Source: Candidatus Hermodarchaeota archaeon (lineage in GTDB: Archaea; Asgardarchaeota; Thorarchaeia; Thorarchaeales; Thorarchaeaceae). From it: a DNA stretch of 64,000 bases. Under the pieces are notes generated by a model. It saw only the letters and a program-made list of their open reading frames with translations. It had not been told where the DNA came from and did no database searches. Every line of letters begins with the position of its first letter. Position 1 is the stretch's first letter. Shown one piece after another: positions 3,891-18,393 of the stretch. The DNA lies in contig JBHLLF010000002.1 of the NCBI GenBank assembly GCA_048885865.1, positions 128,001 to 192,000 of the forward strand, read 5' to 3'. Both the position numbers and the translations under genes were made by a program.

Positions 3891-4304
3891 TTATTCCTTC
3901 GGAATGCGTGGTATTTCACGAAGCATGTCTATATCCTCAGCCCATGCTACAAGCTCTTTGCCCATATTCTCCAAGTACTGAAGGAGAACGACTTGATATT
4001 TGTGCAGATGATGTTGCTCTAGTTTCTTCTGCTTCTCAACAAAATCTCTTACTCTTCTAGGAAGTCCTGCGCTCCATCGCCTGACAGCCATTTCGGCCTT
4101 CCGATCGCCAAGAACCCTCTTAGCCGTCCTCGACCTCCGTTTCAAAACCAGAATGTGTTCAAGAGTCCTCTGAACTGCAATTATGGCTGCGACAAGTTCC
4201 TTTGCATCGGCCTTAAGGCTCTCATTTCGAGTTGTGTAGTATATCTCTTTGATAAGTCGCTTGGCTTTGATCACGTAGTTCAGCAGTTCTATCATCTCTT
4301 GCAT
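3891..4304 (-). CDS. Hypothetical basic helical protein
   Basis: ORF 3891-4397; start moved to ATG 4304 behind GGAGG. Co-oriented downstream of the Cas4-like genes; no recognisable motif. Confidence 0.6.
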   Translation of the reverse strand: MQEMIELLNYVIKAKRLIKEIYYTTRNESLKADAKELVAAIIAVQRTLEHILVLKRRSRTAKRVLGDRKAEMAVRRWSAGLPRRVRDFVEKQKKLEQHHLHKYQVVLLQYLENMGKELVAWAEDIDMLREIPRIPKE

Positions 4305-4342: not shown

Positions 4343-5008
4343 CTATGCAGCTGAGCGGTTGCAGATGCCGTTTCTTCCATACGGACAGGCTCTGCACTTC
4401 TCTTTGCTAGGACTGGCCTTCGGTTTTCTCCCCTGATACCAGACCTCATCAAGTTTTGCCAAGGCCTTCAAAACTTGCCTCTGATTGAATCTTCTGCTAT
4501 ATACCATCGCATCTCCACATGACACGCAATCAACCTGATTTTTCCCGATACAATTCTTTGCAGTCCTCTGCGAACAATATACGAGAACCAGCCTTGCACT
4601 GGCACATGAAACTCCAGTTTCCATAAGGGCAAGTGCGTATAGCCCTGCTTGGAAGAGGTCCTCTTCCCTGGGCTTAAGCGGACTATGTTTCATGGGGAAC
4701 TTCCGTTCTATGATGGCATCAAGCACTGGTACCTCTTCCCAATGCAGGACAGCGTTGTCAAACCTACCATTGAACCTGTGTCCCAATGAATAGACTGATT
4801 GTTCACTGAATAGAAAGGACCTTTTGGATTCTGGCTTCCTTCTTAATCTGAGGAACTCTTGAAGTGTCCATCTACTTGTTTCCGCACCTCTTATGCGCCT
4901 TCCACTTGAAAGGAGGATTCCTCCGGAGTTCATATAGATTAAGGCAAAAACGCCTCCAATGAACATGAAAAATAGAATGCCATTTGTGAATGGGTCCATT
5001 TGCATCAT
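4343..5008 (-). CDS. Cas4-like PD-(D/E)xK nuclease core with N-terminal TM helix
   Basis: GRFD...ERK...QAGLY catalytic motifs, C-terminal CRACPYGRNGIC, N-terminal hydrophobic ILFFMFIGGVFALIY. Start ATG 5008 overlaps the upstream TGA (ATGA). Confidence 0.8.
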   Translation of the reverse strand: MMQMDPFTNGILFFMFIGGVFALIYMNSGGILLSSGRRIRGAETSRWTLQEFLRLRRKPESKRSFLFSEQSVYSLGHRFNGRFDNAVLHWEEVPVLDAIIERKFPMKHSPLKPREEDLFQAGLYALALMETGVSCASARLVLVYCSQRTAKNCIGKNQVDCVSCGDAMVYSRRFNQRQVLKALAKLDEVWYQGRKPKASPSKEKCRACPYGRNGICNRSAA

Positions 5009-5259
5009 CCCACCACCCATAGAACAGCTGCTGCTATAGTTCCAATCAAAATCAATGCTCTAATCAAACGACTGAACGATCGGACAGGTTTTGGATTCAA
5101 CCCCACTTCGCGATGAAGTCGTTCGCCATCTCTACTAGCTTCAGAGGGGCTCTCTCGGCGCATCTGTAGTAATAAGAATCTATGTTCGCAGAGATACTGG
5201 ATGCGAAGTTCAGACACATCTCGATATCGTCCCAATGGGCCCCTCTTAGGATCCTTCAT
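5005..5259 (-). CDS. Cas4-like N-terminal fragment with C-terminal TM helix
   Basis: VSELRIQYLCEHR...DGERLH matches the Cas4 N-terminus (S-x7-C and G-x3-H); ends in hydrophobic ALILIGTIAAAVLWVVG. Confidence 0.7.
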   Translation of the reverse strand: MKDPKRGPLGRYRDVSELRIQYLCEHRFLLLQMRRESPSEASRDGERLHREVGLNPKPVRSFSRLIRALILIGTIAAAVLWVVG

Positions 5260-5451
5260 CCTTCATCTGATGATTGGTGTCCCATGAGCCCTCAAAAGGG
5301 GCACCGTTTTCGAATTTGGGTGGATAAGAGAATATACATAGGTCTGAGAAGTGTTTTACCTCAATATCGCAATCATAGGAGCTTTACTTATATTCGTGTG
5401 ACGTAAATCCTAGGATGTTAGACTTCACCAGCGGAGTCTGGGGAAACTCGA

Positions 5452-5883
5452 ATGGGTGATATGATGTCTGAAGACTACGATGGAGCTACGGCTGGCAGAG
5501 TTCTCGTTTTTGATGCCAACGAGACTGTAAGGTTTCCAGCACAATTCAAAGACGCCATGGGAACCAATAACGGGTTGATGGTGCTAGTACACAAGGACCG
5601 ACTCATCAAGATCTTCCCGCTCGAAGACAAAGAGGTAAGCTTTCTGTCGGTCGAGATTAAAAAACTTACAAATGACTTCTTAACACAGCTCTCGCAGGTC
5701 TTCAAATCAGCAGGCCTAGTCGATTTGCTATTTTCAACAGGTGTCTGCCTTCGTGGCACAAGATGTTTCTATGAGTGCTACTTCAATCCCGGACAGCTTA
5801 CGAATACTTTGGATGATCTGAGGAACGAACTTGCTGCACTAGAAGGTGTCAGCTATGTCCACATAGAGAATGTTCATTCATGA
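5452..5883 (+). CDS. Putative regulator, AbrB/MraZ-like N-domain plus ACT-like C-domain
   Basis: VFDANETVRFPAQFKDAMG resembles the AbrB swapped-hairpin pattern; the C-terminal half has an ACT-like beta-alpha-beta-beta-alpha-beta pattern. Confidence 0.45.
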   Translation: MGDMMSEDYDGATAGRVLVFDANETVRFPAQFKDAMGTNNGLMVLVHKDRLIKIFPLEDKEVSFLSVEIKKLTNDFLTQLSQVFKSAGLVDLLFSTGVCLRGTRCFYECYFNPGQLTNTLDDLRNELAALEGVSYVHIENVHS

Positions 5884-6595: not shown

Positions 6596-6991
6596 ATGGC
6601 AGGAAGAAGTACTGCAGAAATCAAGTGTGTGAAATGCAAGAATGTGTACGAGTTCGACGTTATTGATCACATCGACCTCTCGCAAGACCGCGACCTCGTG
6701 AAGAACCTGAAGGCTGGTAAAGCAAACCGTGTTCAATGCCCCAAATGCAAGAAGGTTCAGTATCTTGATCGGAGTCTAGTCATTAATTTTGAGCCAGAGA
6801 ATCTCATTGTCGTTTATGATCCCGCAGCAAAGAGGAAAGCAGTTCGGGAGGAACATGAGCGAGAATATCAGAACGTGATTGGATTCAATGAGATTCTAGA
6901 AGAGGTTGGAGAAGAAACCGAATTCAAGGTCATCTCCAAAATCGATGAGCTAAAGGGACTCGTGGTTGAATACATGAAAGCTTATGAATAG
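6596..6991 (+). CDS. CpXC-domain zinc-ribbon protein
   Basis: CVKC...IDLSQDRDL...CPKC spacing typical of the CpXC family. Confidence 0.7.
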   Translation: MAGRSTAEIKCVKCKNVYEFDVIDHIDLSQDRDLVKNLKAGKANRVQCPKCKKVQYLDRSLVINFEPENLIVVYDPAAKRKAVREEHEREYQNVIGFNEILEEVGEETEFKVISKIDELKGLVVEYMKAYE

Positions 6992-17266: not shown

Positions 17267-18393
17267 AAATTGAGGGGATACCTTCCCCTCTTCTCGGCAT
17301 AGTCATACATCTCAAGAATCTTCTCTGGAGTAGAATCCGGCTGTATGTTGTGGGCTGGAGCTAGAATATAGCCTCCACCCGGTGCGAGTGCTTTCAAGCG
17401 CGTATCTATCTCGCTCCTGAGGTCATCAGAAGTGCCTCTCTCAGACATAGCCCGTTGAAGGTCAACTCCGCCATGAAAGGTTAGTCTGTCACCGTATTTC
17501 TCTTTTAGAATAGCAGAGTCCATTCCCTTTGCAAGAGGCTGAATCGGATTCAGAATATCCACATCAACCTCCAATAGGTCATTAATCATCGGCTCTACTG
17601 CTCCGCAGCTGTGATACAGAATTTTGACGTGAGGAGCTCTCTTGTGGATGTCACCATAGATTTTCTTGTGCCGAGGTTTTACGAGCTTCTTGTACATCCG
17701 AGGACTCATAATCAGACCATCTTGATGCCCGAGGTCGTCACCTACTTGTACAATGTCCAGATACTCTCCTGCTTCATCCAAAAGGACTCTATTCATATCG
17801 AGTGCCAACTCCATTGCTTTGTCCATCATTGCTTCCGCAAGCTTTGTGCGTTGGCCCAGATCAATCAAGAACTTGTCAAATCCGCGCATATAGTGCTCAC
17901 ATATCTCAAAGACTCCCCATGGCCCGCCCACCATCCCAACCACTGCATAGTCAGTTTTATCATGGAGGTACTTCGCCCACTCAACAACGCCTTCCATTCG
18001 TGAAGAATCATCAGCATCCGGCCACGGATACTCCTCGACTTGTTCCACTTCTGTGAACTCAGCCCATGGGAAATAGGTCACTTCCCAGTAGAGGCCGATG
18101 TATTTTCCGCGAAAGCCATATTCTGTGTCGGTAGAGCCATCAGGATAGGTCCTCATCTTGAAACTTGAAGATGGATTCATGTACACACGTCGGAAGTCTA
18201 CATGAAGTCTACGCAGCATTTCCTCAGAGATTTTCCATGCTTCCATTATACCCCATTCTTGATCCTCCTTGGCAGTTATGCCTAGGTGATCTCGCAAGTT
18301 GCGGTACGCAGCCGACGTTGTCCAATAGTCGATTGGCACCCTATCTGGCTCCTCATGGTTAACAGCTTTGTGGAATCTCTCTCGTGAACTCAT
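17263..18393 (-). CDS. UroD/MtaA-CmuA family protein (candidate methylcorrinoid acceptor methyltransferase)
   Basis: EPDRVP, GDDLG.Q, HSCG, LNPIQ, GGGYILAPAHNIQ. Confidence 0.8.
   Translation of the reverse strand: MSSRERFHKAVNHEEPDRVPIDYWTTSAAYRNLRDHLGITAKEDQEWGIMEAWKISEEMLRRLHVDFRRVYMNPSSSFKMRTYPDGSTDTEYGFRGKYIGLYWEVTYFPWAEFTEVEQVEEYPWPDADDSSRMEGVVEWAKYLHDKTDYAVVGMVGGPWGVFEICEHYMRGFDKFLIDLGQRTKLAEAMMDKAMELALDMNRVLLDEAGEYLDIVQVGDDLGHQDGLIMSPRMYKKLVKPRHKKIYGDIHKRAPHVKILYHSCGAVEPMINDLLEVDVDILNPIQPLAKGMDSAILKEKYGDRLTFHGGVDLQRAMSERGTSDDLRSEIDTRLKALAPGGGYILAPAHNIQPDSTPEKILEMYDYAEKRGRYPLNF

What the first reader, a model, noticed from the sequence alone, without database searches (positions are those of the whole stretch)
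4343..5259. Cas4-like nuclease split into two separately membrane-anchored halves
Seen: ORF 5005-5259 carries the Cas4 N-terminal elements (first Fe-S Cys in YLCEHR, GERLH) then a C-terminal TM. ORF 4343-5008 starts with a TM, then carries D...ExK...QxxxY and the three C-terminal Cys, plus an extra C-x7-C-x7-CxxC. The genes are joined by an ATGA stop/start overlap. Established: the Cas4/AddB 4Fe-4S cluster needs one N-terminal and three C-terminal Cys. Inference: a TM hairpin was inserted into Cas4 and the gene was then cut at the outside loop, so a heterodimer would rebuild the cluster on the cytoplasmic membrane face. No cas1/cas2 or array is present, so this is a solo membrane nuclease (DNA uptake or anti-viral entry defence), possibly with 3891-4304 as partner.
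Basis: partly seen in the sequence, partly recalled or inferred. Interest (0 to 1): 0.72.

Follow-up and report, generated by a model that had tools for sequence, protein, structure and literature searches.

The report
Split membrane-anchored Cas4/Exo5-like nuclease
Two tightly coupled small genes of a Thorarchaeota (Asgard archaeon) genome each encode one membrane helix plus one part of a single Cas4/Exo5-type iron-sulfur DNA nuclease, so the enzyme probably has to be put together from two proteins on the inner face of the membrane; I found no paper describing this layout, and its cellular job is untested.

Summary
An 84-aa ORF (5008-5259, minus strand) and a 221-aa ORF (4346-5008, minus strand) overlap in ATGA.

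The split is real. All 64 related Thorarchaeota loci with both genes keep a stop codon between them. The junction varies (frame -1, +1 or 0), both genes are under purifying selection, and independent contigs show no indels.

Profile comparison maps small residues 10-54 and large residues 45-221 onto adjacent parts of single-chain, soluble Exo5/Cas4-like nucleases. The two TM helices therefore sit exactly at the break.

The small chain carries the N-terminal cluster Cys and the motif I His. The large chain carries motifs II, III and QhxxY, the three C-terminal Cys and an extra invariant 4-Cys insert. Charge distribution puts both soluble parts in the cytoplasm.

An AF2 model of a natural in-frame relative, read through its stop, docks the small part in the canonical Cas4 position (Z 16.3, against 10.8 for the large chain alone).

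No cas1, cas2 or CRISPR array was found. The downstream 137-aa gene persists in genomes that lack the pair, so it is not an obligate partner. No fused intermediate was found.

Function is inferred only. This scan had already noted the same family in other Thorarchaeota genomes.

The parts
5008..5259 (-). Small subunit gene (84 aa; stop at 5005-5007). It has an N-terminal cytoplasmic segment with the cluster Cys (C24 in QYLCEHR) and the RecB motif I-like G..LH (H49), then a C-terminal tail-anchor TM helix.
   Evidence: The invariant residues are R13, V15, L18, Q21, C24, E25, G45, L48 and H49. hhalign places residues 10-54 on columns 25-69 of the single-chain relatives (probability 95.6%, E 1.2e-8). 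Median dN/dS is 0.32.
5011..5067 (-). TM helix of the small subunit (residues 65-83). Only 1 residue follows it.
   Evidence: The Kyte-Doolittle 19-mer mean is 2.45 here and 2.76 as the mean of 60 homologues. K/R counts are 2.0 in the 12 residues before the helix and 0.07 after it.
5005..5008 (-). ATGA stop/start overlap joining the two genes (translational coupling).
   Evidence: Contigs from other samples span it without indels. The junction type differs between relatives.
4346..5008 (-). Large subunit gene (221 aa; stop at 4343-4345). It has an N-terminal TM helix and then the PD-(D/E)XK core with D84, E101-x-K103 and Q120xxxY124.
   Evidence: hhalign places residues 45-221 on columns 72-256 of the single-chain relatives (probability 99.6%, E 7.6e-24). 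Median dN/dS is 0.16.
4934..4990 (-). TM helix of the large subunit (residues 7-25), predicted N-terminus out and C-terminus in.
   Evidence: K/R 0.13 before the helix, 3.03 in the 15 residues after it. AF2 gives a helix at residues 6-27.
4517..4576 (-). Extra invariant four-Cys insert, C145-x7-C153-x7-C161-x2-C164. It is probably a structural metal site (Zn or a second Fe-S cluster).
   Evidence: invariant in 30 sequences. Some single-chain relatives have a CxxC...C...C insert at the same place. Which metal it binds was not tested.
4361..4396 (-). C-terminal Cys triad C205-x2-C208-x7-C216, the three C-terminal ligands of the iron-staple cluster.
   Evidence: It aligns with the KCRxCxYxxxC triad of Exo5/Cas4-like proteins.
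3891..4304 (-). Downstream co-oriented 137-aa helical protein of unknown function. It is a conserved neighbour, 38 nt after the large gene, but not an obligate partner.
   Evidence: It is present in genera g29 and g23 and in G018 and G394, which lack the pair. In g29 and g23 it sits directly beside the divergent 143-aa gene. No family match was found.

Best explanation
The two genes encode complementary parts of one Cas4/Exo5-type 'iron-staple' PD-(D/E)XK nuclease. The enzyme works as an obligate heterodimer tethered to the cytoplasmic face of the membrane.

The small chain is tail-anchored. It supplies the N-terminal helices with the first cluster Cys (C24) and the motif I His (H49), which is a ligand of the catalytic metal in SSO0001. 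The large chain has its N-terminus outside, one TM helix and its C-terminus inside. It supplies motifs II, III and QhxxY, the three C-terminal Cys and an extra 4-Cys metal site.

Tight translational coupling makes both chains together. Their TM helices pair in the membrane and bring the soluble parts together, so that an inter-chain Fe-S cluster and the active site form.

Shown here (all in silico): the split, its conservation, which residues lie on which chain, the position of the break, the predicted topology and the predicted docking.

Inferred: that the chains assemble, that a cluster binds, that the enzyme cuts DNA, and the role. The role I think most likely is cutting ssDNA or DNA ends that appear at the membrane (incoming foreign or imported DNA), while the tether keeps the nuclease off the chromosome. 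It is not a CRISPR adaptation enzyme.
For: Conservation of the split:
- All 64 loci with both genes have a stop after the small ORF. Junctions are -4 overlaps (24), +4 gaps (21, plus 7 that are ambiguous between -8 and +4), and others including two in-frame cases.
- The large gene is single-copy in 69 of 85 genomes of one family.
- The small ORF was found in 21 of 24 genomes searched with it.
- dN/dS is 0.32 for the small gene and 0.16 for the large gene.
- Logan contigs from three other samples cover the junction without indels.

Complementarity of the two chains:
- The small profile maps to columns 25-69 of the single-chain relatives and the large profile to columns 72-256.

Fold:
- The large chain alone gives pLDDT 84.9. 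It matches Cas4 7mi4 at Z 10.8 over chain residues 54-217 only.
- The natural in-frame relative L041, read through its TGA, gives pLDDT 86.9 and pTM 0.83. Residues 11-50 have pLDDT 85-94, and residues 62-81 and 87-107 form a TM hairpin.
- That model matches 7mi4 at Z 16.3 (190 residues aligned, chain 5-203), human EXO5 at Z 14.3 and SSO0001 at Z 12.4.

Topology:
- The positive-inside pattern holds in 60 pairs.

Residue roles:
- In SSO0001 the metal ligands are His62, Asp99 and Glu113 and the N-terminal cluster ligand is Cys32. In Pcal_0546 the corresponding residues are Cys64 and His94, and SSO1391 H80A is inactive (PMC4176176).

Coupled decay:
- In genus g3 a TnpB-type element truncates the small gene in two genomes. 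In another genome the small gene is truncated and the large gene is deleted.

No CRISPR link:
-.
Against: - There is no experimental or expression evidence; no RNA run holds the stretch.
- The docking comes from a single-chain read-through model with an unpaired alignment and a 4-residue covalent loop. That favours proximity, although not a particular docking position.
- The tool does not return atomic distances, so the geometry of the four Cys was not checked.
- In several Cas4 proteins the cluster is dispensable for cleavage (PMC4176176; PMC12501428), so the cluster may be purely structural.
- In G396 and G397 the large gene is still intact although the small gene is broken. This could mean recent decay, or some function of the large chain alone.
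- The pair lies in a housekeeping, vertically inherited neighbourhood (aRF1, PheRS, DedA/VTT), which is not typical of defence genes. It has also been lost in some lineages.
Confidence: 0.7

Rival explanations
1. The split is an artefact or a pseudogene: a frameshifted single gene produced by a sequencing or assembly error or by recent decay.
For: The two ORFs overlap by 4 nt in different frames, as a frameshift would produce.
Against: Sixty-four loci from different species all have two ORFs, with different junction types and frame relations. Both ORFs are under purifying selection. Independent contigs show no indels. No ~300-aa fused protein exists among the strong hits.
Confidence: 0.01
2. 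One polypeptide with a TM hairpin is made by programmed frameshifting or stop read-through, and the two-gene appearance is misleading.
For: Two relatives (L041, L061) have the ORFs in frame, separated only by a TGA and 2-3 codons.
Against: The required shift would be -1 in 24 loci, +1 in about 28 and 0 in two, and there is no shared slippery site. Each large ORF has its own start codon placed at the small ORF's stop, which is the usual pattern of translational coupling.
Confidence: 0.04
3. The topology is reversed: the nuclease domain faces outside, making a surface or extracellular nuclease for eDNA scavenging or DNA uptake.
For: Membrane-bound extracellular nucleases exist in bacteria (general knowledge). 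An N-terminal hydrophobic helix could act as a signal anchor.
Against: K/R residues are enriched on the domain side of both helices (3.03 against 0.13, and 2.0 against 0.07). The small chain is tail-anchored with a 1-residue tail, so its domain cannot be exported by a signal peptide. A domain with eight conserved Cys, probably holding Fe-S, is expected to be assembled in the cytoplasm (inference).
Confidence: 0.06
4. The assembly is as in the best explanation, but the role is housekeeping DNA metabolism (flap, end or ssDNA processing like EXO5, MGME1 or Dna2) at membrane-attached chromosome sites, not handling of incoming DNA.
For: The pair is single-copy, syntenic and vertically inherited among housekeeping genes. 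The closest folds include EXO5, MGME1 and Dna2. It matches no defence-system model other than generic Cas4 models.
Against: The pair is dispensable. It is absent from three 96-99% complete genomes of genus g29 and from g23, and it is decaying in g3. Nothing explains why a repair nuclease would need two membrane anchors.
Confidence: 0.25

Closest known systems
Single-chain prokaryotic Exo5/PDDEXK_1-type 'Cas4-like' nucleases (250-280 aa; for example P0125, P0141 and a Thermoprotei 'PD-(D/E)XK nuclease family protein'; Pfam PF09810 plus PF12705)
   Same: They are the nearest sequence relatives (E 5e-8 and weaker with the large-chain profile). They share the N-terminal V-S-x-I/L-x-Q-x-Y-C-E ... 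G-x-x-x-H, then D, ExK, QxxxY, F/Y-W...R and KCRxCxYxxxC. Some carry a Cys-rich insert at the same site. They occur sporadically in other Asgard lineages (14 of 314 genomes).
   Different: They are one soluble chain without TM helices. Their distribution is patchy, and none was found in the 85 Thorarchaeota-family genomes. The Thorarchaeota form has about 75 extra residues (two TM helices plus linkers) and a stop codon between columns 69 and 72.
Human/yeast Exonuclease V (EXO5; PF09810; PDB 7LW7-7LWA)
   Same: It is the best PDB sequence hit of the large-chain profile (E 0.014, C-terminal Cys region). Structural match is Z 14.3 with 192 residues aligned for the read-through model. Its cluster uses one N-terminal and three C-terminal Cys (general knowledge).
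   Different: EXO5 is single-chain and soluble (nuclear and mitochondrial). PF09810 scores only 12.2 bits against a cut-off of 25 for the Thorarchaeota protein.
Cas4 of CRISPR adaptation modules and solo-Cas4 (PF01930/TIGR00372; SSO0001 4IC1, Pcal_0546 4R5Q, 8D3L, 7MI4; M. mazei Solo-Cas4)
   Same: [quoted passage not shown] Solo forms outside CRISPR loci are common (PMC5704561; PMC12501428).
   Different: Scores are below the curated cut-offs (PF01930 14.5 against 22.7; TIGR00372 25.9 against 65). No cas1, cas2 or array is present. Cas4 is not split and has no TM helices; the Cas4 phylogenomics paper does not mention transmembrane or split forms.
SNIPE (E. coli PD-lambda-1), a membrane-bound nuclease that cleaves phage DNA during injection (PMC13190303)
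   Same: It is a functional analogy only. It has the same layout as predicted for the large chain: N-terminus outside, one TM helix and a cytoplasmic nuclease. Its membrane anchor keeps the nuclease off host DNA.
   Different: SNIPE is one chain with DUF4041 and a GIY-YIG nuclease, so it is not homologous. It is bacterial and a proven defence gene. No defence role has been shown here.

Membership tests
Cas4 (PF01930 / TIGR00372, CRISPR adaptation nuclease) | Score above the curated family cut-off | tested here: not met
   PF01930 scores 14.5 bits against a cut-off of 22.7. TIGR00372 scores 25.9 against 65, over the C-terminal 37 residues only. The read-through relative P0156 scores 12.9 bits.
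Cas4 (PF01930 / TIGR00372, CRISPR adaptation nuclease) | RecB motifs II (D), III (ExK) and QhxxY | tested here: met
   D84, E101, K103, Q120 and Y124 are invariant in 30 homologues.
Cas4 (PF01930 / TIGR00372, CRISPR adaptation nuclease) | Genomic association with cas1/cas2 or a CRISPR array | tested here: not met
   The 87%-complete genome has no Cas1 or Cas2 match. The window has no CRISPR-like repeats. The housekeeping synteny is conserved.
Iron-staple nucleases (AddB / Dna2 / Cas4 / Exo5 type) | One N-terminal plus three C-terminal conserved Cys flanking a RecB-like core | tested here: met
   C24 is on the small chain; C205, C208 and C216 are on the large chain. All are invariant and align to the corresponding Cys of single-chain relatives. 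The difference is that the four Cys lie on two polypeptides.
Iron-staple nucleases (AddB / Dna2 / Cas4 / Exo5 type) | A bound Fe-S cluster | not testable with these tools
   This needs purification with UV-vis or EPR spectroscopy. The model coordinates are not returned, so even the Cys geometry could not be measured.
Iron-staple nucleases (AddB / Dna2 / Cas4 / Exo5 type) | RecB-like fold that includes the N-terminal helices | tested here: met
   The read-through model matches 7mi4 at Z 16.3 (model 6-303 to chain 5-203), EXO5 at 14.3, AdnA at 13.6 and SSO0001 at 12.4. The large chain alone gives Z 10.8, 8.2 and 6.5 and lacks the first ~50 residues of the target.
Exo5 (PF09810) | Score above the curated family cut-off | tested here: not met
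   P0156 scores 12.2 bits against 25. The window's large ORF gives no PF09810 hit. The nearest single-chain relatives do pass (25.7-32.5 bits).
PDDEXK_1 (PF12705) | Score above the curated family cut-off | tested here: inconclusive
   P0156 scores 22.0 bits against a cut-off of 22. Two family members carry a precomputed PF12705 hit. The window's own ORF gives no hit at E<=1.
SNIPE (DUF4041 + GIY-YIG membrane nuclease) | [quoted passage not shown] | tested here: not met
   Pfam and PADLOC scans show only Cas4/PDDEXK-type matches. The resemblance is one of topology only.

The most novel reading that the evidence does not exclude
The Fe-S cluster is an inter-subunit staple. Its insertion, which depends on iron, redox state and the membrane, is what switches on a nuclease that is otherwise inert as two separate chains. 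The assembled enzyme then acts as a constitutive entry guard at the membrane of Asgard archaea, cutting viral or other incoming DNA. It would be an archaeal, non-homologous counterpart of SNIPE that tells self from non-self by location.
Probability: 0.2. Interest if true: 0.8.

Novelty: new variant of a known kind. Interest (0 to 1): 0.6.

Why it matters
Iron-staple nucleases (AddB, Dna2, Cas4, Exo5) are known as single soluble domains whose Fe-S cluster pins the N- and C-terminal segments of one chain together.

Here the same fold is conserved across one family of Asgard archaea as two chains. The cluster ligands (1 + 3) and the catalytic metal ligands (motif I against motifs II and III) are divided between the chains, and each chain has its own membrane anchor.

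If the chains assemble as predicted, this would be:
- a natural split enzyme whose activity depends on two membrane proteins meeting;
- a case where an Fe-S 'staple' joins two polypeptides;
- a PD-(D/E)XK nuclease confined to the membrane surface.

It gives a concrete, small and expressible system for testing what the cluster does in this family. It also allows a test of whether archaea use nuclease location to spare their own DNA, as was recently shown for the bacterial SNIPE system.

It does not bear on CRISPR adaptation.

Tried and rejected
1. Fused forms. The 261-312-aa database proteins are out-of-frame N-terminal extensions of the large ORF, not fusions. Genomic open frames of 282-296 aa are the same thing. 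The profile search of 1.84 billion representatives gave no strong hit longer than 252 aa.

2. Alignment A5 (small chains truncated before the TM helix) was misaligned by MAFFT and was discarded. A4 was used instead. In A4 the small chains' TM helices align under TM2, which is noise in those columns only.

3. The PDB profile search with the small chain alone gave only chance hits.

4. Expression: no RNA holder is listed for this stretch. This is no evidence either way.

5. The 137-aa neighbour has no Pfam, NCBIfam or PADLOC match, and its Atlas hits score below 0.8. Its function is left open.

6. I did not try a frame-shifting four-letter code to fuse the window's own two ORFs for folding. A natural in-frame relative (L041) read under table 4 was used instead.

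7. Earlier notes of this scan mention Cas4-like proteins with 4 TM helices inserted, in Poseidoniales. I had no sequence of these in hand and did not test whether the insertion site is the same.

8. Literature searches found no description of this layout: Cas4 + transmembrane + Asgard, solo-Cas4 phylogenomics and Cas4 + tail-anchored (0 papers). The library lacks most subscription journals.

Full report
**Observation.** On the minus strand, an 84-aa ORF (5259-5008, TGA stop at 5007-5005) overlaps a 221-aa ORF (5008-4346, stop at 4345-4343) in the sequence ATGA.
- The small protein reads ...RYRDVSELRIQYLCEHR...GERLH... and ends in a hydrophobic helix.
- The large protein begins with a hydrophobic helix. 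It then carries GRFD, IERK, QAGLY, C-x7-C-x7-C-x2-C and C-x2-C-x7-C.

**Organism and family.** Homologues of the large ORF are named Candidatus Thorarchaeota.
- A six-frame profile search of 400 genomes of the phylum finds one strong copy in 69 of 85 genomes of one family (f1). Elsewhere there are only weak hits to other nucleases.
- The small ORF was found in 21 of 24 f1 genomes searched with it.

**Is the split real?** I extracted the locus from 66 genomes.
- In all 64 that hold both genes, a stop codon ends the small ORF and the large ORF has its own start beside it.
- The junction is not conserved. There are 24 ATGA/GTGA-type -4 overlaps, 21 TGAnnnnATG +4 gaps and 7 cases ambiguous between -8 and +4. 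There are also TAATG overlaps, and two loci where the genes are in frame, separated by a TGA plus 2-3 codons.
- A frameshift error or a programmed frameshift would not look like this.
- Database proteins of 261-312 aa are out-of-frame upstream extensions of the large ORF, not fusions.
- Pairwise dN/dS has a median of 0.32 for the small gene and 0.16 for the large gene.
- Logan contigs from three other samples of the same study cover the junction with no insertion or deletion.
- No fused form appears among 1.84 billion representative proteins; all hits below E 1e-50 are 252 aa or shorter.

**What the two chains are.** Sequence models place the large ORF weakly with Cas4, below the cut-offs: PF01930 at E 0.038, TIGR00372 at 7.6e-6, and PADLOC Cas4 models down to 3e-8. 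The best solved-structure hit by profile is human Exonuclease V.
- The next relatives after the family itself are single-chain soluble proteins of 250-280 aa. These pass Pfam Exo5 and PDDEXK_1 and are annotated as PD-(D/E)XK or Cas4-like.
- Profile-profile alignment against 20 of them is the key result. Small residues 10-54 align to their columns 25-69 (probability 95.6%, E 1.2e-8). Large residues 45-221 align to columns 72-256 (probability 99.6%, E 7.6e-24).
- The two chains are therefore collinear, adjacent pieces of one domain. Everything between them is extra: the linker and TM helix of the small chain, the stop, and the TM helix and linker of the large chain.

**Division of labour.**
- The small chain holds the invariant C24 and the invariant G..LH (H49). 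In SSO0001 the N-terminal cluster ligand is Cys32 and the catalytic metal is bound by His62, Asp99 and Glu113. In Pcal_0546 the equivalents are Cys64 and His94, and SSO1391 H80A is inactive (PMC4176176).
- The Cys-to-His spacing is 25 residues here and 30 there. I read H49 as the motif I His; this is an inference from alignment.
- The large chain holds D84, E101, K103, Q120, Y124 and C205, C208, C216, all invariant. It also holds four further invariant Cys (145, 153, 161, 164) in an insert.
- Neither chain has a complete active site or a complete cluster site.

**Structure.** The large chain alone folds with pLDDT 84.9. It matches Cas4, MGME1, EXO5 and AdnA only from about residue 54 of Cas4 onward (7mi4 Z 10.8, 137 residues aligned).
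- To test docking without typing any sequence, I used relative L041 (genome G343). Its two genes are naturally in frame, and I read its TGA as Trp under table 4.
- The 303-residue chain was folded with alignment A4, which holds unpaired small and large rows. It gives pLDDT 86.9 and pTM 0.83. Residues 11-50 have pLDDT 85-94, and the TM hairpin spans residues 62-81 and 87-107. The C-terminal Cys region is more confident than in the large chain alone.
- It now aligns with Cas4 over the whole domain: 7mi4 Z 16.3, 190 residues aligned, model 6-303 to chain 5-203. It matches EXO5 at Z 14.3 and SSO0001 at Z 12.4.
- So the small chain's soluble part is predicted to sit where the Cas4 N-terminal helices sit.
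- Caveats: the covalent loop favours proximity, the alignment is unpaired, and I could not measure Cys-Cys distances.

**Topology.** Figures are for 60 pairs.

| Chain | Helix position | Mean hydropathy | K/R before helix | K/R after helix |
|---|---|---|---|---|
| Small | C-terminal end, about 1 residue follows | 2.76 | 2.0 (12 residues) | 0.07 |
| Large | residues about 6-25 | 2.65 | 0.13 | 3.03 (15 residues) |

By the positive-inside rule both soluble parts are cytoplasmic, and only a few residues of each chain face outside. The small chain is a tail-anchored protein. The large chain has its N-terminus out and C-terminus in, as was shown experimentally for SNIPE (PMC13190303).

**Context.** The neighbourhood is conserved across the family: aRF1 (convergent), the 137-aa gene, the large gene, the small gene, then a divergent 143-aa gene, a DedA/VTT membrane protein and a zinc-ribbon protein.
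- No Cas1, Cas2 or Pfam Cas4 match exists in the 87%-complete genome. The single-chain profile hits only this large ORF. The window has no CRISPR-like repeats.
- The 137-aa gene is not an obligate partner. It is present in 75 of 85 f1 genomes and in the sister family. These include genera g29 (3 of 3; 96-99% complete) and g23, which have no nuclease pair. There it lies directly beside the divergent 143-aa gene with no remnant between them.

**Loss and decay.** Genus g3 shows a series.
- G398 has the pair intact.
- G396 and G397 have the small gene truncated by the end of a TnpB/IS605-type element, while the large gene is still intact.
- G018 has a 66-aa remnant of the small gene and the large gene deleted, beside an intact 138-aa gene.
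- G394 gives no match.

The pair is therefore dispensable and tends to go as a unit.

**Relatives in other Asgard lineages.** Single-chain soluble relatives occur in only 14 of 314 non-f1 genomes and in 0 of 85 f1 genomes. Some sit inside 540-560-aa open frames.

**Mechanism.** The parts, the break position, the topology and the docking are shown in silico. Assembly, cluster binding, activity and role are inferred.
- I commit to an obligate heterodimeric nuclease tethered to the cytoplasmic face of the membrane.
- Its most likely substrate is ssDNA or DNA ends arising at the membrane, with the tether and the two-chain requirement limiting damage to the chromosome.
- A housekeeping role at membrane-attached DNA is the main rival.

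**Novelty.** Searches of the paper library found no description of a split or membrane-anchored Cas4/Exo5-like nuclease. Earlier AI notes of this scan report the same two-gene family in other Thorarchaeota genomes, and TM-inserted Cas4-like proteins in other archaea. I consulted these after reaching my own reading; they agree with it. I did not test the link to the other archaeal forms.

Noticed in passing
L022:200-640 (G396) and L025:880-1330 (G397): The C-terminal end of a TnpB/IS605-type protein (CHVCG...GGEYF.C..C....HAD.NAARNI) reads right up to the truncated remnant of the small-subunit gene. A transposon insertion has removed the Cys/His part of the small chain, while the large gene is still intact.
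   Followed up: partly
L020:1483-2080 (G018): The small gene is reduced to a 66-aa ORF without the LH motif or the TM helix. Only about 400 nt remain where the 663-nt large gene should be. The downstream 138-aa gene is intact.
   Followed up: partly
window 3891-4304 (-): This 137-aa helical protein is more conserved than the nuclease (97% against 87% identity in the closest relative). It is found across the order and matches nothing in Pfam, NCBIfam, PADLOC or the Atlas. It is an orphan conserved Thorarchaeota gene.
   Followed up: partly
G014:C220 (large gene at 5182-5832; 137-aa gene at 17938-18348): In this one genome the 137-aa gene lies about 12 kb from the nuclease pair instead of about 40 nt away. 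This suggests a large insertion or a rearrangement between them.
   Followed up: no
G183:C42, G205:C412, G273:C76, G281:C23, G194:C45: In one other Asgard family (f9), the single-chain Exo5-like nuclease sits inside open frames of 540-560 aa. It is apparently fused to another domain of about 300 aa that I did not identify.
   Followed up: no
window 5452-5883 (+) and 6596-6991 (+): The divergent neighbour is a very conserved 143-aa protein (96-100% identity within the genus; weak match to PRK08577). Further on is a 131-aa protein with two CxxC pairs. Both are syntenic across the family and uncharacterised.
   Followed up: no
window 4517-4576 (-): The invariant C-x7-C-x7-C-x2-C insert in the nuclease core is a second candidate metal site. 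Some single-chain relatives (P0125, P0129, P0148) have a different Cys-rich insert at the same position.
   Followed up: partly
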